DNA from: a virus
Strand: one strand, 5' to 3'
Length of the DNA stretch: 30,536 nucleotides
Virus record (IMG/VR): IMGVR_UViG_3300027532_000001
The position numbers were made by a program, and so were the translations under genes. The notes under the pieces are model-generated. The model had not been told where the DNA came from. It saw only the letters and a list, made by a program, of their open reading frames with translations, and made no database searches. Of the stretch, positions 6,485 through 14,065 are shown in pieces (positions within the stretch are counted from its first letter, which is position 1; the number at the start of each line of letters is the position of its first letter).

Positions 6485-9400
6485 ATGCCTTTGTATGCAC
6501 TTTCTAGCAATACTGATGGGAGAAATACTCTACATACAATAGATCCAGTTACTCGTACAGATACTTTCGTTGGCAATTTTCCCATTAGATATAGGGATTC
6601 GAATAGAAACGATAGATCTGTTGGCACATTACAGAACATTATATCTATCGGTGATAAACTATACATCCTTCCGTCAAGAGCAGGGGGATTAAGAGAGCTA
6701 ATTATATCTACAAATACAGTATCTATAAGTCGTGATGTTACTGGTGGGGATTTCACTGGTCAATTAAGGAGAGTCCCCAATGGAATTGTAGTTCTAGGCA
6801 CAAATGTTTATTTCGCTTTTGGAAATGAAATCTTCGCAATCAATACAGCACTTACATCGGGATACAGTCTGATTGGTCGGACAGGAACTCTTACTGGTTA
6901 CAAACTATTTACTTATGACAACGTTCTCTATGCACTTTCAAATAATGTAACTGTCCATAAAATTGACCCAACAACAATCGATAATGGAGTTATTGCCACT
7001 GAAAGGATTGGGGATCTAAGTGTTAGTATTGCTGGACTCGTTCAACATGATGGTGTATTATATGGAGTCACAGCAACTAACAGACTTTATCAAATAACTA
7101 TTTCTGCTAGTTCTGCAGATAGTGCACTCCTCGATACTCTTACTGGCAATGCTAGATCGATTAGGGATCTCACATCAGATGATCCTGGCTCCGTCACCCC
7201 ACCCAGAGTAGAGATCACTTCGCAGCGGCTCCATGATATTCGAGCCTCGGGCGACCCAGTTGTTGAGCCTCCAGGATCGGTTCAAGTCCAGTTTGGGTTA
7301 GACCACTCCATCCGTGCTCCAGAAGTTAATTTATTTGTACAACTTACTGTAATCTCAACAGAATTTGATTTAGGGACTCGTAATATATTAATCTTAGGCA
7401 GATTTAGAAATGAACTGAAACTCATAAATGGTGGTGTAGAGATTTTCTCATTTGAGGTTGGTGGGGATAGAAACCCCTTCTCGATGGGAATTAGAGGGAA
7501 TCGACTCTATTTATACACTCTTGGATTAGATGCGACACCCATTATTCAAGTTTATTCATGGAACCTTACTGCATCCTCTATAGAAGTCATAAGATTACCA
7601 GAGGAAGATATCCCAATTCGTAATGTAAGTTTAGGGTTAGACGTACAAACAAGTAATCGTAATCAATTTGGTGAATTTGTTGTACGGCGCGATATAGGTC
7701 AAGAAACAAGAATGCATTTGTTGAATAATAGAATTTATCTAGTAAATACAATCCAGAGACATCTTTTTCCAGAGGGAATTAGATACCAAGTATCTGTATA
7801 TGACTATAATGGTGGATTTCATCCCGAAGAATCAGTAAATGTTGAATTCCCCCCTGATTACCTAGAGTCATTTATCTATAGAGACAGAATATACTTATTT
7901 AACATTCAATCAGAATCATCACCAGGAGTATCTTTTTCCACAGTTAGAGTATATGATTTATCTGGCAATCGACTAACTAATGAGGAATTTAGGACATTCT
8001 ACAGAAGAGGTGGTAGAGTATTTATAGATAGAGGGTTCATCTATGAATTGTTCAACATAGATAGTGGTGGTCAGCCATCTGATCTCAATTTTCCTGATGG
8101 AACGTATCTGTCAGCAATACCATTAGGTGAGAATTTTGATATACGTACCAATCCTCGACGGTTTCTTACAGGATTAAGATCGAGTACAACCATAAATGAT
8201 TTCGCTAAATTACCAGATGACGTCAAGATACTACTTTCCAAAAATCATCAAATTAGATCGACAGCTATTCTAAAGGTTCCAACTGATGGCGATGTGCAGG
8301 TCACATTCGACCAGAGTCATTCCATCCGCGCTGAAGGCGACCCGTTATTGTTGCACGGTCACATGGCAGTGTTTGATCATACTCCTGATCAAGCAATCAT
8401 GCATGTGTATGATACTACTGGCAGGAGGATAGAGGATAGAAGTTTCCCTGTAGACCCATTGGGATTGAGCGTCCCAGTACATCCGTCTCCTCCATCAGCA
8501 AGACAGACTATAGGTCGCATTGACGGCGCGGCTTTGTCAGGAGACAGAATCTATCTGATAGTACGAGAGAGATCTAGTGATAGACCTTCTGAATTCAGGA
8601 CAGAAATATTCGTCATAGGGCTAAATGGAGAAAGGTATATAGAGGAGGAGGAAGTCTTTACAGCGGCCATTGAAAATTCTCTATTGGCACCAGGATTAGC
8701 TGCTACAGATACTAGATTATACTTTGTGCAGAGAGACTCTGATAGCGATGTTTTTAGGATCTTAGTCCATAACACTGCTGGAGTAAGGATAGAGAGTGAA
8801 GATTTCAATTTAGTTGGTAGTCCAGCTTCTGAATTGCACGGGTTGACAACCACTCAAAATAGATTGGTCGCTCTCAGATCCTTTAATAGCAACGTTACTA
8901 ACGGTAGGATTGAATTCTATGAATTCTCAGGATTCTTGAGGGAATCGGAAGGATTCGAGCTACCTGACGAAGATGAAACTGGACTTACATTTTTTAGAGG
9001 AGTCACCGCCATTGATGACAGACTATATGTATTGACAGGAGTGCCTACAGGTGCTACATCTCGAATAAGAGTCTATGGAGTAGATGGCACAAGATACGCT
9101 GACGAAGATTTCACATTAGAATTAAGCGGAATCCTCCCTGCAGCTATCACTCGAGTCCCTCGGTATGACGAGAATGTCGTAATTGAATTTGGGAAACAAC
9201 ACCAGATCCGCGCTGGTGGCGCACTAGACTTCATAGAATTATCTGAATTTGACGTTAGAGTTCTCAACATAAGTAAGAATCACCAAATTCGTGGGTCTGT
9301 TGCCAGCGTCGAGTCGGAACCAGTAGACCTTCGGATAGAGTTCAGTAAATTCCATCGCATACGTGCTGATGGTGATGTCACGATCGCATCCAGAGAAGGT

Positions 9401-12400
9401 GATATTAGAATTACTTTCAGATCCTCACACCGGATAAGGGGTGGTGGTGATATTAGAACTACTCTGCCTGTAGAAGTTAGAGTCACATTTGACCCTAATT
9501 ATTCCATACGTGGGGGAGGGAATCTAGGCTCTCCAGATAAGCTCGTTGAATTTGTATCATTTCACCAACTTAGAGGTGGTGGTGACATTATTGTAAATAG
9601 AACAGAAGATAATAGAGTCATATTTGGACTGAACCATGGTATAAGAGCGTCCTCCACATTAAGAATTAAGCTGCCACCTATTGCTGGTGTTGGACTGGAA
9701 GTCTATATCAATGGACAACTATACCCATTTGCTAGAAAAAGGGTTAGAGTTAAGAGACCATCTGACTCTCCTTCCAGGGCTAAAATCCATGGTCTGATAC
9801 GAGCAAATACTCTGGCAAGGTTACGTCCATCTAGTGATCAAGAAGTTCAAATCTATGACAGAACTCTCAGAAGATTGGTCTTTGGTGGCTACTTGTACGA
9901 GCCTGACACTGAAATCAAATCTGGCAATCAACTCGTAGAAATCACATTCAACTGTTTGGGGTACACTTATCGTCTGCAAAAGACAGACATATCCCAAGAA
10001 CAAGGAATCAATGTTATCAAGCAAACTACTGTGTTAGCACAGATGGAAGCACTTGTTAACATAATGGGAGATGAAGGATTCAGAGTTGGTATAGCACCAT
10101 CTGGTGGCACTACATTAACTTCAGATATTCGGTTCACGGATGTCTACTCCGCGCTGGAACAACTCGCTTCTCTAAATAGTAGTAATGTTGTAGTTGAACA
10201 GAATAAGATAGTATCCATTGTTAATGCAGATAACATTCCTGATTCTAGAGTAGTGCTTAATGAAAGAAATGTTATGTCTATCAAATCCTCAGTTGATAGA
10301 CAAAGCTATAGATCCTTCCAAAGAATGATTGGTGGGTTCGTAACTCGTTCTGAATTGCTATCTGGAGATGGTGGTTCTAGAGCATTCCGTATTGGTGGGA
10401 TGGGTGCTGCTGACTCAACTTCATACTTTGGAGCATCTGCACCAGTAGGACCATTATCTCCGGTAAATGACTTAGGATTGAGATCCCAATTTAGGGGAGA
10501 ACTGGAAAGAATAGATATTTTCGATGAGTTAGTTTCACCAGGTTGGTCGGACCCAGCCTTCCCGCAGGCAGCGCCGGGGTTGGCATGGAAAACGACTCAA
10601 GTTGTTCCCGAAAGGGGTTTACTGGATGAGAGCACAATATTCAATTTCCCCATTCCTCCTCGGTATGTTGAGTCGAATGTTAGAGCCTACATCGCCAGCA
10701 TAGAAATTTCATTCTCTCGGGTAAACATCTCCCTAACCGGGCTGGTAACGAGTGACGATGCGGATGAAGAAATACAGTTCTCATTGCTTGGAATCAACAA
10801 TCTCACACTCATAGTCTCCACTGAATCAGGCGACTCATTAAGCTGGAAGATATCAGATCTAATCTCAGATGGTGACACGAATCCATATTCTTGGGGTCTT
10901 CCAAATAACATTTCAACGCAATTTATCACAGATCTCGCACCGCAAGGAGCCAAAGTTGCTCTTGTAGACACTACTATTGAAGGGGTAGACGTTGATGCTG
11001 TATCTGTGTATACTGATTCTCCAGAAATAAATATGCTCGCTAATCCCGAAGTATTCTTGCCATATTATGACGATGCTGATTTGAAGAGAGTTCTAGATTT
11101 GAGATTGTATAATGGTAAGCTGAGAGTTCTTCTAGATAACAATCTCACCAGAAGGACTGAGCTCACAGCATTAATCCAGCATGTGAACAGCGAGCAGAGT
11201 TGGGCCGCTGAAGTGACACAGGTACAAAACATTCCTCTATTTGATGCAGATGGATTGTCTGGATTCGGTGACGATGTTTATGCCACTCAAGGACTAGCAT
11301 GGAAGACTAAGAGAGAAGGTATAGATGCATCCCCTAATCCTGCCTTGAGCTTCATTACCAATAGTGCCTATGGATTCATATCAACCGAGCCATTCCCTTC
11401 TGCGTACATTAGAGATGGGGCCGACACCCCAAGAGCATTTGTATCTGAATTGTTATTTGATGCAAAGAATAACAGAGTGAGTGTGACCCTCTCTGATAGA
11501 CATACCGGAGATGTACAAAATTCTCTCTACCTGCTAGCCGAAAATCAATTATGGGTAATAGACCCATTAAACCCATTTTTGACATTGGGAGTATTCGGTC
11601 TGAGAGGAAATCTCCCAACATCATTAGATAAACCTAATGGTTTATTTAGTCATAGAGGGTCTTTGTATTGCATTGATATAACTAACAAATCTCTATGGAG
11701 GATCAATTCCCTAGATCCTTCTGATACTTCTGGGCAATTCGGTAGAGTTGGACTTCTACCCAGCTTTGTGGAGTTAAACCCAGAATGGAACGCATCAATT
11801 ATCTTTGAAGATGAGTTGTATCTTGTGGGGAGTGAAAACAGAGTCTATAAGATTGACATCACGGACCCTGATAATGACGATGATGGATTTGGGTTAATAG
11901 GTGCATTTCCATATGATCCAGATCCTATTGACCCACCTCAAATAATAGATTTGACTATTCATAATGGAGTTATGCTAGGTATTTCATCGGGATTTCTATG
12001 GATTGTTGATCTCAATGGAACAAGCCTGGTGTTGGTAAGTAGACTCCCGACTGCGTTTATACCCTTTCCTGGTTCTTCCACAGGATATACAGAAATATTC
12101 AATACCTATTATTCCATTTCTTCCATAAATGGTGAAATATATCTAACAGATGAACAAGGGGGAGTATGGAGATTAGGACTATTAAATCCAGGCAATCCTC
12201 CAGGTGAGATGCATAAAGCAGATATCGATTCTGATGAAGCTGGTCAGATTGCGATGCTGCCAACACCATTACAATTAAGGGGTAATTATCTCGATCCTCG
12301 TATTCCTGTTATACCCTCTCCGGTAAGATCGATGATTTCATATACGGAAGCATCGGTGGATGATGTTAATCTATTTTCGATAGATCGTCTACCTTTCCCA

Positions 12401-14065
12401 GGTGCACCACATATATTGATAGACTGGGGTCTGTATAGACTAGATCCAGACAATTCCGGTGACACTACCAATTTCGGCCCAATTTCTGGACCATTCTACT
12501 TCCAGGATGACATACCATTTGTCGCACAGTTCTTTGGTATGGAAAATGCGGATGGTGAATTGTATGTCTTCCTATTGACCAGACAAGGGTTCTATAGAGT
12601 CTTTGTAGTTGATCCCAATAATCCACACGATGCAGATAGAGGCAGATTAGTTGGCAATATATCTGCTCTCATAATTGAGCCATCTAACCCCACAACATTC
12701 CATGACATATGGTATATCGTAGATAAATCCACGAATATTCTGTACAGTGCTCCCATAGATAATCCCGCCGCTGCAACAGAAGTCAAAACTCTGGGTGCTG
12801 GTGTCCCAGACATGGTCGCATTAACAATTCTAGAAGGGAGACTATATGGGGTTTCCAATCCATTAGACTCTACTTCTGATGCGCAGCTTTGGGTAATTGA
12901 CCCGACCAATGCTGGGGTTACGGAAGTATTTGTAGGCAATCTGCCGCCAGAGATTAGAGACATTCTATCATTGACAACATTTAGAGGTGATATGTGGCTG
13001 TCCTCTTCTGATTCATTATGGATTATTGACCACAATGACCCAGATAATGTTCAAGGAAAATTCGGTAGAGTCAGTGGGTCCAGAGGGCGGATCATATCTT
13101 CGTTTGTTGGGTCACGTAATCGACCCATCCAACTTACGGAGCATGCTCTATCAAATCTGCATCTAGCTGTCAAGACTCTAGATAACTCTGAATACATATG
13201 GTCTATTGACACATTATCCTCCATAGATCGCACTAACAGATTCAATTGGTACAGCCGAGACATCGACCAGGTTCTGATAGACAAGCTCCGCGCTGGAACG
13301 GCGGAGGCTATGTTCTTGGATGGGTCTGACAGTAACGTGCTGCTATCTGTCAGGAGATTCCGCTCCCCGATTGGCAGAAACGGAATCTTGTTCGACTTAG
13401 GTGTTGGTGATACAGGCTTTAGAGAAAGGGCTCTGGAAAATCAACTGTTCGTGACAGCCATAGTGGATTCTTCCCTAGGAGTGGTGGACATCCCGAATAG
13501 AGAGTTCATTTCACAAATTGATAACATTACGGTGGACAGGGTTACTGCTGTCCGTTTGAATGCAGCGGACCAAATCATTGGTCCTGGAGAGTGGTCATTC
13601 AACATAGCTACCCAAGAGATTATTCCTCCAGCTTACTTGAGGTTGCTGAGATTAACCGATTTGATCGAAGTCACGGAAGAGGGACGTTGGATTGTGGAAG
13701 AATCCAGCGGGGTGTCTCCGTCGGTCCATGACACAGAATACGTTAATTTGCCTCTTGTCGAACAAGGCAGGTCGTTAAGTCGAGCTAGACTGAGACAGCA
13801 CCGGAATCCATCGGAATCATTGATGATCACGATCTTCCCCAATGCTCGAGTGCATATAGATGACGGGGAAGGGGTTCGGATTGACACCAGTCTCACGGGT
13901 TCGCTGGGAACGTTGAACCCGGACCAAGACGAAATCTACATCACAGACTATCTAGAGATTAACACCGAGGGTGACATTCTGGTCTATACCGTGAGGGTTT
14001 CGAGGAGAGTGTTCGAATCGAAGCTGAGACCGTTCTGGAATAGGTTGCTGGGCAGTAGAAGGTAG
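6485..14065 (+). CDS. Giant 2526-aa modular tail / host-recognition protein
   Basis: One uninterrupted ORF covering a quarter of the genome. Several blocks of blade-like repeats are present (LYxL / RIYLx...VYDxxGxRxxxEDFxL / LWVIDPxNP...G.LP...LY). There are eleven copies of a short H-x-I-R-[AG]-x-G-D repeat. A central segment (aa ~1090-1330, EVQIYDRTLRRLVFGGYLYEPD...) resembles distal-tail or hub proteins. Duplicated GLAWKT modules start at 10577 and 11291. Confidence 0.75.
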   Translation: MPLYALSSNTDGRNTLHTIDPVTRTDTFVGNFPIRYRDSNRNDRSVGTLQNIISIGDKLYILPSRAGGLRELIISTNTVSISRDVTGGDFTGQLRRVPNGIVVLGTNVYFAFGNEIFAINTALTSGYSLIGRTGTLTGYKLFTYDNVLYALSNNVTVHKIDPTTIDNGVIATERIGDLSVSIAGLVQHDGVLYGVTATNRLYQITISASSADSALLDTLTGNARSIRDLTSDDPGSVTPPRVEITSQRLHDIRASGDPVVEPPGSVQVQFGLDHSIRAPEVNLFVQLTVISTEFDLGTRNILILGRFRNELKLINGGVEIFSFEVGGDRNPFSMGIRGNRLYLYTLGLDATPIIQVYSWNLTASSIEVIRLPEEDIPIRNVSLGLDVQTSNRNQFGEFVVRRDIGQETRMHLLNNRIYLVNTIQRHLFPEGIRYQVSVYDYNGGFHPEESVNVEFPPDYLESFIYRDRIYLFNIQSESSPGVSFSTVRVYDLSGNRLTNEEFRTFYRRGGRVFIDRGFIYELFNIDSGGQPSDLNFPDGTYLSAIPLGENFDIRTNPRRFLTGLRSSTTINDFAKLPDDVKILLSKNHQIRSTAILKVPTDGDVQVTFDQSHSIRAEGDPLLLHGHMAVFDHTPDQAIMHVYDTTGRRIEDRSFPVDPLGLSVPVHPSPPSARQTIGRIDGAALSGDRIYLIVRERSSDRPSEFRTEIFVIGLNGERYIEEEEVFTAAIENSLLAPGLAATDTRLYFVQRDSDSDVFRILVHNTAGVRIESEDFNLVGSPASELHGLTTTQNRLVALRSFNSNVTNGRIEFYEFSGFLRESEGFELPDEDETGLTFFRGVTAIDDRLYVLTGVPTGATSRIRVYGVDGTRYADEDFTLELSGILPAAITRVPRYDENVVIEFGKQHQIRAGGALDFIELSEFDVRVLNISKNHQIRGSVASVESEPVDLRIEFSKFHRIRADGDVTIASREGDIRITFRSSHRIRGGGDIRTTLPVEVRVTFDPNYSIRGGGNLGSPDKLVEFVSFHQLRGGGDIIVNRTEDNRVIFGLNHGIRASSTLRIKLPPIAGVGLEVYINGQLYPFARKRVRVKRPSDSPSRAKIHGLIRANTLARLRPSSDQEVQIYDRTLRRLVFGGYLYEPDTEIKSGNQLVEITFNCLGYTYRLQKTDISQEQGINVIKQTTVLAQMEALVNIMGDEGFRVGIAPSGGTTLTSDIRFTDVYSALEQLASLNSSNVVVEQNKIVSIVNADNIPDSRVVLNERNVMSIKSSVDRQSYRSFQRMIGGFVTRSELLSGDGGSRAFRIGGMGAADSTSYFGASAPVGPLSPVNDLGLRSQFRGELERIDIFDELVSPGWSDPAFPQAAPGLAWKTTQVVPERGLLDESTIFNFPIPPRYVESNVRAYIASIEISFSRVNISLTGLVTSDDADEEIQFSLLGINNLTLIVSTESGDSLSWKISDLISDGDTNPYSWGLPNNISTQFITDLAPQGAKVALVDTTIEGVDVDAVSVYTDSPEINMLANPEVFLPYYDDADLKRVLDLRLYNGKLRVLLDNNLTRRTELTALIQHVNSEQSWAAEVTQVQNIPLFDADGLSGFGDDVYATQGLAWKTKREGIDASPNPALSFITNSAYGFISTEPFPSAYIRDGADTPRAFVSELLFDAKNNRVSVTLSDRHTGDVQNSLYLLAENQLWVIDPLNPFLTLGVFGLRGNLPTSLDKPNGLFSHRGSLYCIDITNKSLWRINSLDPSDTSGQFGRVGLLPSFVELNPEWNASIIFEDELYLVGSENRVYKIDITDPDNDDDGFGLIGAFPYDPDPIDPPQIIDLTIHNGVMLGISSGFLWIVDLNGTSLVLVSRLPTAFIPFPGSSTGYTEIFNTYYSISSINGEIYLTDEQGGVWRLGLLNPGNPPGEMHKADIDSDEAGQIAMLPTPLQLRGNYLDPRIPVIPSPVRSMISYTEASVDDVNLFSIDRLPFPGAPHILIDWGLYRLDPDNSGDTTNFGPISGPFYFQDDIPFVAQFFGMENADGELYVFLLTRQGFYRVFVVDPNNPHDADRGRLVGNISALIIEPSNPTTFHDIWYIVDKSTNILYSAPIDNPAAATEVKTLGAGVPDMVALTILEGRLYGVSNPLDSTSDAQLWVIDPTNAGVTEVFVGNLPPEIRDILSLTTFRGDMWLSSSDSLWIIDHNDPDNVQGKFGRVSGSRGRIISSFVGSRNRPIQLTEHALSNLHLAVKTLDNSEYIWSIDTLSSIDRTNRFNWYSRDIDQVLIDKLRAGTAEAMFLDGSDSNVLLSVRRFRSPIGRNGILFDLGVGDTGFRERALENQLFVTAIVDSSLGVVDIPNREFISQIDNITVDRVTAVRLNAADQIIGPGEWSFNIATQEIIPPAYLRLLRLTDLIEVTEEGRWIVEESSGVSPSVHDTEYVNLPLVEQGRSLSRARLRQHRNPSESLMITIFPNARVHIDDGEGVRIDTSLTGSLGTLNPDQDEIYITDYLEINTEGDILVYTVRVSRRVFESKLRPFWNRLLGSRR

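What the first reader, a model, noticed from the sequence alone, without database searches (positions are those of the whole stretch)
6485..14065. A single 2526-aa modular protein takes up a quarter of a 30-kb phage genome
The ORF is uninterrupted. By eye it contains these parts:
- An N-terminal blade-repeat region (aa 1-235: LYALSSN, LYILPSR, VYFAFGNEIFAINT, LYALSNN, LYGVTATNRLYQI).
- Two further repeat domains with the unit RIYLx(10-20)VYDxxGxRxxxEDFxL (aa ~290-580 and ~620-895).
- A tandem array of a short repeat (see the separate finding).
- A central segment resembling distal-tail or hub proteins (EVQIYDRTLRRLVFGGYLYEPDTEIKSGNQLVEITFNCLGY...).
- Duplicated modules starting GLAWKT (nt 10577 and 11291).
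- Two more propeller-like regions built on LW[VI]IDPxNP...G.LP...LY.
- A more GC-rich C-terminal ~270 aa.

It looks like a fusion of distal tail, hub and several receptor-binding domains in one chain. No separate tape-measure protein is present. I know of no described family with this architecture.
Basis: partly seen in the sequence, partly recalled or inferred. Interest (0 to 1): 0.7.

Follow-up and report, generated by a model that had tools for sequence, protein, structure and literature searches.

The report
Giant decorated phage tail-hub protein
The 2526-residue protein is this phage's tail-tip hub, the plug at the end of the tail tube, enlarged about five-fold by built-in propeller-shaped domains that probably bind the host; it is an extreme and oddly arranged example of a known kind of phage protein, not a new kind of machine.

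Summary
ORF 6485-14065 is an uninterrupted 2526-codon gene covering 24.9% of a complete, circularly assembled 30.4-kb phage genome.

No sequence library names the protein (Pfam, PHROGs, NCBIfam, PDB, cultured phages). An exhaustive HMMER search found 44 metagenomic proteins, many 450-850 aa. Their N-termini match giant aa ~1070-1335; in 19 the C-terminus also matches aa ~2315-2525. A confident AlphaFold model of the central segment matches gp27-like tail/baseplate hubs (MuSo2 43-kDa protein E 2e-11; Mu gp44, T4 gp27, VgrG, T5, 80alpha, Bxb1).

In relatives the gene order is tape measure, then a 270-aa protein, then the hub. The giant is therefore a Tal-class hub with a 1066-aa N-terminal extension and a ~980-aa insert, two beta-propellers nested in a duplicated module.

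The "distal tail fusion" is not supported: tandem paralogues upstream hold that position. No normal tape measure exists. A 95-aa ORF in that slot ends like relatives' tape measures.

Verdict: new variant of a known kind, moderate interest.

The parts
6485..14065 (+). Whole gene: 2526-aa decorated tail hub protein
   Evidence: Uninterrupted ORF. AGGA RBS 7 nt upstream. Identical in independent assemblies.
6485..7189 (+). aa 1-235: N-terminal propeller-like domain (blade motifs LYALSSN, LYILPSR, VYFAF, LYALSNN, LYGVT)
   Evidence: Motifs verified. Weak self-similarity to the C-terminal propellers, E 0.003-0.007. Faint blade-profile hit at aa 181-211. Sub-threshold DUF4394 hit. Fold not modelled.
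7190..7339 (+). aa 236-285: two units of the ~24-aa short repeat (V-x-V-x-F-x3-H-x-I-R-A/G)
7340..8209 (+). aa 286-575: repeat domain R1 (RIYL ... VYDxxG units), probably propeller-like
   Evidence: Motif positions. Similar to R2. No database homologues found. Fold not modelled.
8210..8350 (+). aa 576-622: two more short-repeat units
8351..9160 (+). aa 623-892: repeat domain R2
   Evidence: Faint blade-profile hits at aa 737-778 and 832-851. P0017 matches aa 734-880.
9161..9682 (+). aa 893-1066: array of seven short-repeat units directly N-terminal to the hub domain
   Evidence: The same repeat precedes the hub in P0016, P0045, P0093 and P0061. No DNA-level tandem repeat. AlphaFold gives pLDDT 26-48, so the structure is unresolved.
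9683..10498 (+). aa 1067-1338: hub N-core (gp27-like tube-like barrel, alpha/beta domain and start of the next beta domain)
   Evidence: AlphaFold pLDDT above 90 over ~190 residues. Foldseek: MuSo2 3cdd E 2e-11, Mu gp44, T4 gp27, VgrG, HFTV1, T5 pb3, 80alpha, Bxb1. 44 homologous representatives.
10499..11218 (+). aa 1339-1578: G1 module (GLAWKT ... D-x-NPYSW ...), intact first copy
   Evidence: Collinear homology to P0031 (q1108-1579) and to P0010, P0121 and P0145. Family consensus motifs G-x-W and D..PY.W. Poorly modelled.
11219..11530 (+). aa 1579-1682: first half of the second G module (G2a, second GLAWKT)
11531..12229 (+). aa 1683-1915: beta-propeller A (~48-aa blades, LWVIDP...G.LP...LY)
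   Evidence: Over 100 blade homologues, which carry DUF6923/NHL/SGL/SBBP propeller hits. Blade profile hits at aa 1687-1760, 1775-1809 and 1877-1905.
12230..13096 (+). aa 1916-2204: linker plus beta-propeller B
   Evidence: Blade profile hits at aa 1983-2196. aa 1665-1762 resembles 2111-2208, E 1e-11.
13097..13426 (+). aa 2205-2314: second half of the second G module (G2b, ...NRFNW...)
   Evidence: aa 1405-1470 resembles 2188-2255, E 1e-4. Spliced G2a+G2b aligns collinearly to G1 in one HSP across the junction, E 3e-5.
13427..14062 (+). aa 2315-2526: conserved C-core of the hub family
   Evidence: Matches the C-termini of 19 family representatives. AlphaFold pLDDT 80-94. BFVD proteins as short as 448 aa align over both cores. 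GC3 0.55. No PDB sequence relative.
4844..5641 (+). 265-aa protein; by synteny the distal-tail-position gene, copy 1
   Evidence: 39% identical to the 275-aa neighbour. Homologue in L008 lies between a 905-aa tape measure and the hub, E 1.6e-42.
5648..6475 (+). 275-aa paralogue, copy 2
   Evidence: E 5e-51 to the L008 270-aa protein
4525..4812 (+). 95-aa acidic ORF in the tape-measure slot; candidate miniature tape measure (hypothesis)
   Evidence: Ends ...ENAGRVGRRLGIG. Compare L006 ...ENAPRQLRRLGL, L005 ...VPRSLKRQGLR, L008 ...LPRQAGRLRLR. The relaxed motif is unique among six-frame ORFs of the window.
2662..3441 (+). 259-aa putative major tail (tube) protein
   Evidence: phrog_9522 major tail protein, E 2.9e-5

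Best explanation
The gene encodes the phage's tail hub, the Tal/gp27-class protein that as a trimer closes the distal end of a siphovirus tail tube. This copy is greatly enlarged.

The hub proper is split in the sequence. An N-core at aa 1067-1338 has the gp27-like fold. A conserved C-core lies at aa 2315-2526.

Between the two cores lie two copies of a family-typical 'G' module. The second copy carries two roughly five-bladed beta-propellers nested inside it.

In front of the hub is a 1066-aa arm. It has three propeller-like domains separated by 2, 2 and 7 copies of a ~24-aa His-containing repeat.

Inferred mechanism: three copies assemble at the tail tip through the hub cores, below the 265/275-aa proteins that hold the distal-tail position. 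The arms and inserted propellers project outwards and act as built-in receptor-binding or adhesion modules, up to 15 per virion. One gene would then supply what other siphoviruses spread over Tal, side fibres and separate receptor-binding proteins.

Shown: ORF integrity, family membership, hub fold, synteny, repeat architecture, nested insertion. Inferred: trimeric assembly, outward display, binding function.
For: 1. The gene is real: uninterrupted, with an RBS, and identical in independent assemblies.

2. The exhaustive HMMER search gave 185 hits. Mapping them shows 44 representatives with an N-core match to aa ~1070-1335, of which 19 also have a C-core match to aa ~2315-2525.

3. The hub fold is well supported. 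The AlphaFold model with 27 sequences has pLDDT 79.6, above 90 over ~190 residues. Foldseek against the PDB gives MuSo2 3cdd (E 9e-8, then 2e-11 with the second model), Mu gp44 1wru, T4 gp27 1k28_D, VgrG, contractile injection system hubs, HFTV1 9h4p_BD, T5 pb3 7zqp_b, 80alpha 6v8i_AE, Bxb1 9d93_Oa, Douge 8zdo_s and the NF5 Tal 9m7n_A. These align over ~225-250 columns at 4-5 A.

4. BFVD proteins of 448-954 aa, some named 'minor tail protein' or 'tail protein', align across both cores.

5. Synteny fits. Family members lie just after a large upstream gene: a PhageMin_Tail tape measure in L005 and a classic tape-measure sequence in L008. L008 has tape measure, then a 265-like gene, then the hub.

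6. The nested insertion is supported. P0031 joins giant aa 1579 to aa 2322 with 30 aa. Spliced G2 aligns to G1 in one HSP, E 3e-5.

7. The propeller identity is supported by the blade profile and by DUF6923/NHL/SGL/SBBP hits in blade homologues that also carry Ig, cadherin, FN3 and invasin adhesin domains.

8. There is precedent: Tal proteins of 890-2020 aa with inserted binding modules (PMC7533335), and a five-bladed propeller as the binding domain of the phage phi11 receptor-binding protein (PMC4901313).
Against: - No sequence library recognises any part of the protein.
- Only about two-thirds of a canonical hub is covered by the confident fold alignment (TM about 0.5 to 325-aa hubs).
- It is not shown that the C-core supplies the rest of the hub. 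Long alignments have RMSD of 25-45 A.
- The N-terminal arm, the short-repeat array and the G modules were either not modelled or modelled poorly.
- A hub domain starting at residue 1067 breaks the rule that the gp27-like domain is N-terminal, so the geometry of assembly is unknown.
- No lysin domain was found.
- Binding function is inferred only from domain type.
- No virion proteomics or microscopy exists.
Confidence: 0.75

Rival explanations
1. One reading: one chain fuses the distal tail protein, the hub and the receptor-binding proteins, and stands in for the missing tape measure.
For: The central segment contains a tube-like barrel of the kind Dit also has; weak hits to tail-tube proteins cover ~125 columns. 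No conventional tape measure exists in the genome.
Against: The best fold matches are hubs, and no listed match is described as a distal tail protein. In L008 the Dit slot, between tape measure and hub, holds a homologue of the separate 265/275-aa genes. The modelled parts of the giant are mostly beta-strand, with no tape-measure-like helical or hydrophobic stretch. A 95-aa ORF with a tape-measure-like C-terminus sits in the proper slot.
Confidence: 0.08
2. The ORF is translated as one chain but does not function as one. Proteolytic processing or internal initiation would yield a separate hub (from about aa 1067) and a free ~1000-aa fibre or adhesin.
For: A 1066-aa arm in front of a domain that is normally N-terminal is geometrically awkward. 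The short-repeat array just before the hub could be a hinge or a cleavage region.
Against: 13 of 44 family representatives also carry more than 150 aa before the hub core; P0031 has 1077 aa. Extension in cis is therefore a recurrent, selected arrangement. No Met or obvious internal start lies near aa 1050-1075. No protease or intein domain was found.
Confidence: 0.15
3. The propeller and repeat modules are enzymes, such as depolymerases, lactonases or glycosidases that degrade host surface polymers, rather than passive binding domains.
For: Blade homologues hit NHL and SGL (SMP-30/gluconolactonase) families. The phi11 propeller most resembles carbohydrate-active enzymes and a glutamine cyclotransferase (PMC4901313).
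Against: The giant's own blades do not reach any enzyme family threshold. Blade homologues co-occur mainly with adhesin-type Ig, cadherin, FN3 and invasin domains. No catalytic motif was identified.
Confidence: 0.15
4. Assembly artefact: a chimeric or mis-joined contig produced a false long ORF.
For: The data are metagenomic. GC3 varies strongly along the gene, from 0.23 to 0.55.
Against: Identical sequence over 13-17 kb in separate Logan and ENA assemblies, with 14 contigs carrying the exact protein. There is no stop in 7.6 kb. The domain order is collinear with independent relatives P0031, P0045 and L009.
Confidence: 0.02

Closest known systems
Siphovirus Tal / tail-tip hub proteins with 'evolved' decorations (e.g. 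Streptococcus thermophilus pac-group Tals, 890-2020 aa; PMC7533335)
   Same: A gp27-like structural domain sits at the tail tip. The chain is lengthened by binding modules, and modules can be inserted into the structural region. The gene lies after the tape-measure and Dit genes.
   Different: In those Tals the gp27-like domain is always at the N-terminus, the extension is C-terminal and often collagen-like, and the inserted modules are BppA-type CBMs. Here the hub starts at residue 1067. The modules are beta-propellers. One insertion is nested inside a duplicated module. The protein is larger (2526 aa) in a much smaller genome. No lysin domain was found, and there is no sequence similarity to those Tals.
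gp27-like hub proteins: Mu gp44, prophage MuSo2 43-kDa tail protein (3cdd), T4 gp27, VgrG N-terminal domain
   Same: The fold of aa 1067-1300 matches (Foldseek E 2e-11 to 9e-4, ~225-250 aligned columns, 4-5 A).
   Different: Those are ~320-380-aa stand-alone proteins or N-terminal domains, mostly of contractile systems. There is no detectable sequence similarity. Only about two-thirds of their fold is covered by the confident part of the model.
The unnamed metagenomic hub family found here (44 representatives, e.g. P0021 599 aa, P0040 772 aa, P0031 1839 aa, P0045 1516 aa)
   Same: Same N-core, G-module motifs and C-core at 22-31% identity. The insertion hot spot between G-a and G-b is shared. 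Some members have the same His-containing short repeat before the hub. N-terminal extensions are found in about 30% of members. The same 265-like gene lies upstream in L008 and L009.
   Different: The giant is the largest member seen (the next is 1839 aa). Its core-to-core spacer is ~980 aa against at most 373 aa. Relatives L005, L008 and L009 carry a recognisable tape-measure gene (860 aa, 905 aa and a fragmented one); this phage does not.
Staphylococcus phage phi11 receptor-binding protein Gp45 (PMC4901313)
   Same: A roughly five-bladed beta-propeller is used as a presumed sugar-binding platform on a siphovirus baseplate.
   Different: Gp45 is a separate trimeric protein attached to the baseplate, not part of the hub chain. 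There is no sequence relation.
Lambda gpJ, T5 pb3 and the RcGTA g15 'megatron'
   Same: Large single-chain tail-tip proteins that combine a hub or tip structural role with host recognition. T5 pb3 is among the fold hits.
   Different: These are 950-1300 aa with an N-terminal hub, a C-terminal fibre or FN3 domains, and no propellers. Comparison with RDJL phi1 GTA-like tail proteins found no similarity.

Membership tests
gp27-like tail/baseplate hub (Tal class) | gp27-like fold: tube-like beta-barrel plus alpha/beta insertion domain plus a second barrel | tested here: met
   AlphaFold model pLDDT above 90 over ~190 residues. Foldseek probability 1.0, E 2e-11 to 3cdd; also Mu gp44, T4 gp27, VgrG, T5, 80alpha and Bxb1. 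Coverage is about two-thirds of the reference hubs; the second barrel is only partly modelled.
gp27-like tail/baseplate hub (Tal class) | Gene lies downstream of the tape-measure and distal tail genes in the tail module | tested here: met
   Relatives: a large upstream gene, then the hub (Pfam tape-measure hit only in L005). L008: tape measure, then a 265-like gene, then the hub. In the window the order is major tail protein, 146-aa, 192-aa, 95-aa, 265-aa, 275-aa, then the giant.
gp27-like tail/baseplate hub (Tal class) | Structural hub domain at the N-terminus of the chain | tested here: not met
   The hub core begins at aa ~1067. 13 of 44 family representatives also have more than 150 aa in front.
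gp27-like tail/baseplate hub (Tal class) | Match to the sequence families used to annotate hubs (Phage_GPD, Prophage_tail, Sipho_Gp37 and similar) | tested here: not met
   No Pfam, PHROG or NCBIfam hit for the giant, its hub core or ten family members. The PDB profile search gave only E 0.14.
gp27-like tail/baseplate hub (Tal class) | Trimer forming a pseudo-hexameric ring that closes the tube | not testable with these tools
   Only monomer models were available. This needs multimer prediction or cryo-EM.
Tail-associated lysin in the strict sense | A peptidoglycan-hydrolase domain in the chain | tested here: not met
   No hydrolase, lysin or peptidase family was detected.
Distal tail protein (Dit) | Dit fold or family (Sipho_tail) and the position between tape measure and hub | tested here: not met
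   No Dit family hit. Fold hits are hubs. The Dit position belongs to the 265/275-aa genes; their own fold was not tested.
Tape measure protein | A long, helix-rich segment with hydrophobic stretches, or a tape-measure family hit | tested here: not met
   No tape-measure family hit on the giant. The modelled parts are mostly beta-strand with only short helices. Residue composition is not helix-biased.
Beta-propeller repeat (DUF6923 / NHL-like) | Tandem ~45-50-aa blades detectable by a propeller family model | tested here: inconclusive
   The giant itself does not reach any Pfam propeller threshold. Its blade homologues do: DUF6923, NHL, SGL, SBBP. A blade profile built from them finds three blade-profile hits in region A (one spanning two blades) and four overlapping hits in region B. 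No 3D model was made. The N-terminal, R1 and R2 domains give only faint hits.

The most novel reading that the evidence does not exclude
This phage and its metagenomic relatives may represent an undescribed style of siphovirus tail tip. In it the hub carries its host-binding apparatus in cis on its N-terminus, as arms built from propeller or Ig domains spaced by a His-containing ~24-aa repeat, and in a nested insertion hot spot. In this particular phage that design is coupled to a tape measure shrunk to ~95 aa. The result would be a stubby-tailed siphovirus (tail of roughly 15 nm) whose reach to the host comes from three ~1000-aa hub arms rather than from the tail itself.
Probability: 0.25. 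Interest if true: 0.65.

Novelty: new variant of a known kind. Interest (0 to 1): 0.45.

Why it matters
The finding shows how far the tail hub can be loaded with adhesion modules: five propeller-type domains in one chain, a quarter of the genome. It also shows that the hub domain tolerates a very long N-terminal extension and domain-within-domain insertions. That is useful knowledge for engineering phage host range.

It defines a hub family that current annotation libraries miss entirely. Such genes are therefore labelled 'hypothetical' in sponge and other metagenomes.

The apparent reduction of the tape measure to ~95 aa, if real, would be a natural test of the tape-measure rule for tail length.

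Tried and rejected
- Sequence libraries. The whole protein and its segments gave nothing against Pfam, PHROGs, NCBIfam, PDB sequences or 50,697 cultured-phage records.
- The word-indexed 5.8-billion-protein search. It found only the protein itself with the full query. It found nothing with the hub alignment or with aa 286-895, and in those two runs it did not even return the parent protein. I treat those two negatives as uninformative.
- The search for related loci. The 275-aa protein and the major head protein had no relatives in IMG/VR. The hub alignment was too divergent for that tool.
- A link to GTA-like tail tips, suggested by the capsid's similarity to Roseobacter phage RDJL phi1. phmmer found no similarity to the RDJL tail proteins, including the orf13- and orf15-like ones, so I rejected it.
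- Naming the short-repeat array and the C-core. PDB sequence and profile searches gave nothing significant. AlphaFold did not resolve the array.
- DNA-level tandem repeats in the gene: none.
- Read-through joining the 192-aa and 107-aa ORFs. They share a frame but several stop codons separate them, so I rejected it.
- Identity of the 265-aa protein from PDB sequences: only chance-level hits.
Full report
**Observation**

The window is a complete phage genome. Its first 127 bases recur at its end, giving a 30,409-bp circle.

It encodes a terminase, portal, protease/scaffold and HK97-type major head protein at 22-27.7 kb. A head-tail connector and a weak major-tail-protein match lie at 1.7-3.4 kb, and a helicase/primase lies on the other strand.

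ORF 6485-14065 is uninterrupted for 2526 codons. It starts 10 nt after the stop of the upstream gene, with an AGGA 7 nt before the ATG. It takes up 24.9% of the genome.

The exact protein is on 14 contigs. Contigs from a Logan assembly of SRR8092709 and from an ENA assembly are base-for-base identical to the window over 17.3 and 13.5 kb. SRR8092709 is listed in a marine-sponge metagenome study. An assembly artefact is therefore very unlikely.

The internal repeats are real by self-comparison.

**No library names it, but it has a family**

Pfam, PHROGs, NCBIfam, PDB sequences and tblastn against cultured phages all gave nothing significant.

The exhaustive HMMER search with aa 1061-2260 returned 185 proteins at E<=0.001. 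I mapped the best 149 back onto the whole giant. They fall into two groups.

- Group A consists of blade repeats matching aa ~1685-1810.
- Group B has 44 representatives whose hub-like region matches aa ~1070-1335. In 19 of them the C-terminus also matches aa ~2315-2525.

Typical group B members are 450-850 aa. The giant is thus an expanded member of an existing but unannotated family. Ten family members also gave no Pfam or PHROG hit in the shared regions.

**The central segment is a tail hub**

An AlphaFold model of aa 1066-1340, built with 26 homologues, was confident: mean pLDDT 79.6, and above 90 for about 190 residues.

Foldseek against the PDB returned gp27-like hubs almost exclusively. 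These included the prophage MuSo2 43-kDa tail protein (3cdd), 3d37, Mu gp44 (1wru), hubs of contractile injection systems and VgrG. They also included the Haloferax virus HFTV1 tail and the 80alpha, Bxb1 and Douge tail tips.

A second model used the giant's own sequence with aa 1580-2291 removed, which mimics the natural junction in P0031. It improved the matches to E 2e-11 over ~225-250 columns at 4-5 A. It added T4 gp27, T5 pb3 and a bacteriophage NF5 Tal.

The C-core was also confidently folded (pLDDT 80-94). In the viral structure library many proteins align over both cores. One is only 448 aa (TM 0.57). Some are annotated as minor tail or tail proteins of siphoviruses (Rhodococcus phage Trina, Clavibacter phage CMP1).

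I conclude that N-core plus C-core make up the minimal hub protein. Whether the C-core completes the gp27 fold or is an appended domain is not resolved.

**Synteny**

Family members sit directly after a large upstream gene. That gene carries a PhageMin_Tail domain in L005. In L008 it is an unmistakable 905-aa tape measure.

L008 also places a 270-aa homologue of the window's 265/275-aa proteins (E 1e-42 and 5e-51) between the tape measure and the hub. The frameshift-ridden L009 shows the same order and carries further short repeats upstream of its hub.

The two tandem paralogues upstream of the giant are 39% identical.

**Architecture**

- aa 1-235: propeller-like domain.
- aa 236-285: two short repeats.
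- aa 286-575: repeat domain R1.
- aa 576-622: two short repeats.
- aa 623-892: repeat domain R2.
- aa 893-1066: seven short repeats.
- aa 1067-1338: hub N-core.
- aa 1339-1578: module G1.
- aa 1579-1682: first half of module G2.
- aa 1683-2204: two propellers with ~48-aa blades.
- aa 2205-2314: second half of G2.
- aa 2315-2526: C-core.

The nested insertion rests on three observations:

- P0031 joins the equivalents of aa 1579 and 2322 with only 30 residues.
- aa 1405-1470 resemble aa 2188-2255.
- G2 spliced across the propeller block aligns to G1 in a single HSP (E 3e-5).

Other family members carry propeller-like or other inserts at the same place. Their core-to-core spacer is at most 373 aa, against about 980 aa here.

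N-terminal extensions of more than 150 aa occur in 13 of 44 representatives. P0031 has 1077 aa of PKD/Ig-type domains.

The ~24-aa short repeat has the consensus V-x-V-T-F-x3-H-x-I-R-A/G-G-G-D with a near-invariant His. It also precedes the hub in P0016, P0045, P0093 and P0061. It leaves no DNA-level repeat signal. AlphaFold could not fold it as a monomer, which would fit an oligomeric shaft but proves nothing.

Blade homologues hit the DUF6923, NHL, SGL and SBBP propeller families. They co-occur with Ig, cadherin, FN3 and invasin domains. A profile built from them finds three hits in the first propeller region (one spanning two blades) and four overlapping hits in the second, with only faint echoes in the N-terminal domains.

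**Mechanism**

Shown: this is the hub gene of a siphovirus-type tail module, heavily decorated.

Inferred from the established behaviour of gp27-like hubs and Tal proteins: three copies close the tube tip. The N-terminal arms and the inserted propellers face outward and mediate adsorption.

Published Tals reach ~2020 aa and can carry modules even in loops of the gp27 fold, but their gp27 domain is N-terminal (PMC7533335). A five-bladed propeller is the presumed sugar-binding platform of the phi11 receptor-binding protein (PMC4901313).

Three features are unusual here: the mid-chain hub, the domain-in-domain nesting, and the size relative to the genome.

**Tape measure**

The 30.4-kb circle has no tape-measure family hit and no helix-rich long ORF. 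The only unassigned ORFs over 300 aa are a 779-aa protein and a 322-aa signal-peptide protein.

The slot between the 192-aa ORF and the 265-aa gene holds only a 95-aa acidic ORF ending ...ENAGRVGRRLGIG. Tape measures next to this hub family end in:

- ...ENAPRQLRRLGL (L006)
- ...VPRSLKRQGLR (L005)
- ...LPRQAGRLRLR (L008)
- ...ENTPDAAERLGLT (L009 fragment)

A pattern built from these occurs once in all six-frame ORFs of the window, at that C-terminus, and nowhere in 112,000 residues of other proteins. I had relaxed two positions of the pattern to admit the window's own residues, so this is suggestive and not independent evidence. I record it as a hypothesis: a miniature tape measure, and hence a very short tail.

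**Verdict**

This is a new variant of a known kind: a Tal-class hub with an unusual topology, belonging to a family absent from annotation libraries.

Interest is moderate. It would be higher if the N-terminal-arm design and the miniature tape measure are borne out.

Noticed in passing
window 3886-4844 (95-aa ORF at 4525-4812): No conventional tape-measure gene exists anywhere in the complete genome, although relatives L005, L008 and L009 have a recognisable one (860 aa, 905 aa and a fragmented copy). The tape-measure slot holds only a 95-aa acidic ORF whose C-terminus (...ENAGRVGRRLGIG) resembles the C-terminal motif of those tape measures.
   Followed up: partly
window 4844-5641 and 5648-6475: Tandem paralogues (39% identity) occupy the distal-tail position, where relative L008 has a single 270-aa copy. 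No library names them. Each shows a weak internal duplication (E 0.07).
   Followed up: partly
whole window; e.g. 26737-27687 against 6485-8209: Codon composition is extremely mosaic. GC3 is 0.81 in the major head protein and 0.66-0.71 in portal, terminase and protease. It is 0.34-0.51 in the tail genes and only 0.23-0.24 in the N-terminal modules of the giant gene. This suggests modules with different histories.
   Followed up: partly
window 27733-30072: A 779-aa protein of unknown function lies between the major head protein and the connector genes. It has an internal duplication (PLIIHVSGDIAG...YFAP and PLIIWITADISG...YVLP). A 38-aa stretch is 47% identical to the N-terminus of the 953-aa gene that follows the hub in L005 (E 7e-7). 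It may be a fibre in an unusual position.
   Followed up: partly
window 74-1042: A 322-aa protein with an N-terminal signal peptide or lipobox-like sequence (MRRLILGSLIAFMIGC) is embedded in the structural module. It runs across the assembly junction and has no family hit.
   Followed up: no
window 15682-16782 (- strand): A 366-aa protein whose product in L001 carries Reprolysin-type zinc metalloprotease Pfam hits. This is an unusual gene for a small phage.
   Followed up: no
window 2662-3441 and 3445-3885: The putative major tail protein and the following 146-aa protein both start MPIRS..., which hints at a second tube-like paralogue.
   Followed up: no
L008 12218-14330 and L010 7507-9736: Two relatives are prophage ends with an integrase next to a PQQ-repeat beta-propeller gene. 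The hub family therefore also occurs in temperate phages of related hosts. The host was not identified.
   Followed up: no
L009 7943-12980: P0016 (770 aa) is probably a fragment. In this 2x-coverage contig the hub gene seems broken by frameshifts. It likely spans ~1450 aa or more, with RLFLLD...VYDTDSG units, further short repeats, the hub and a separate C-core ORF, an architecture close to the giant's.
   Followed up: partly
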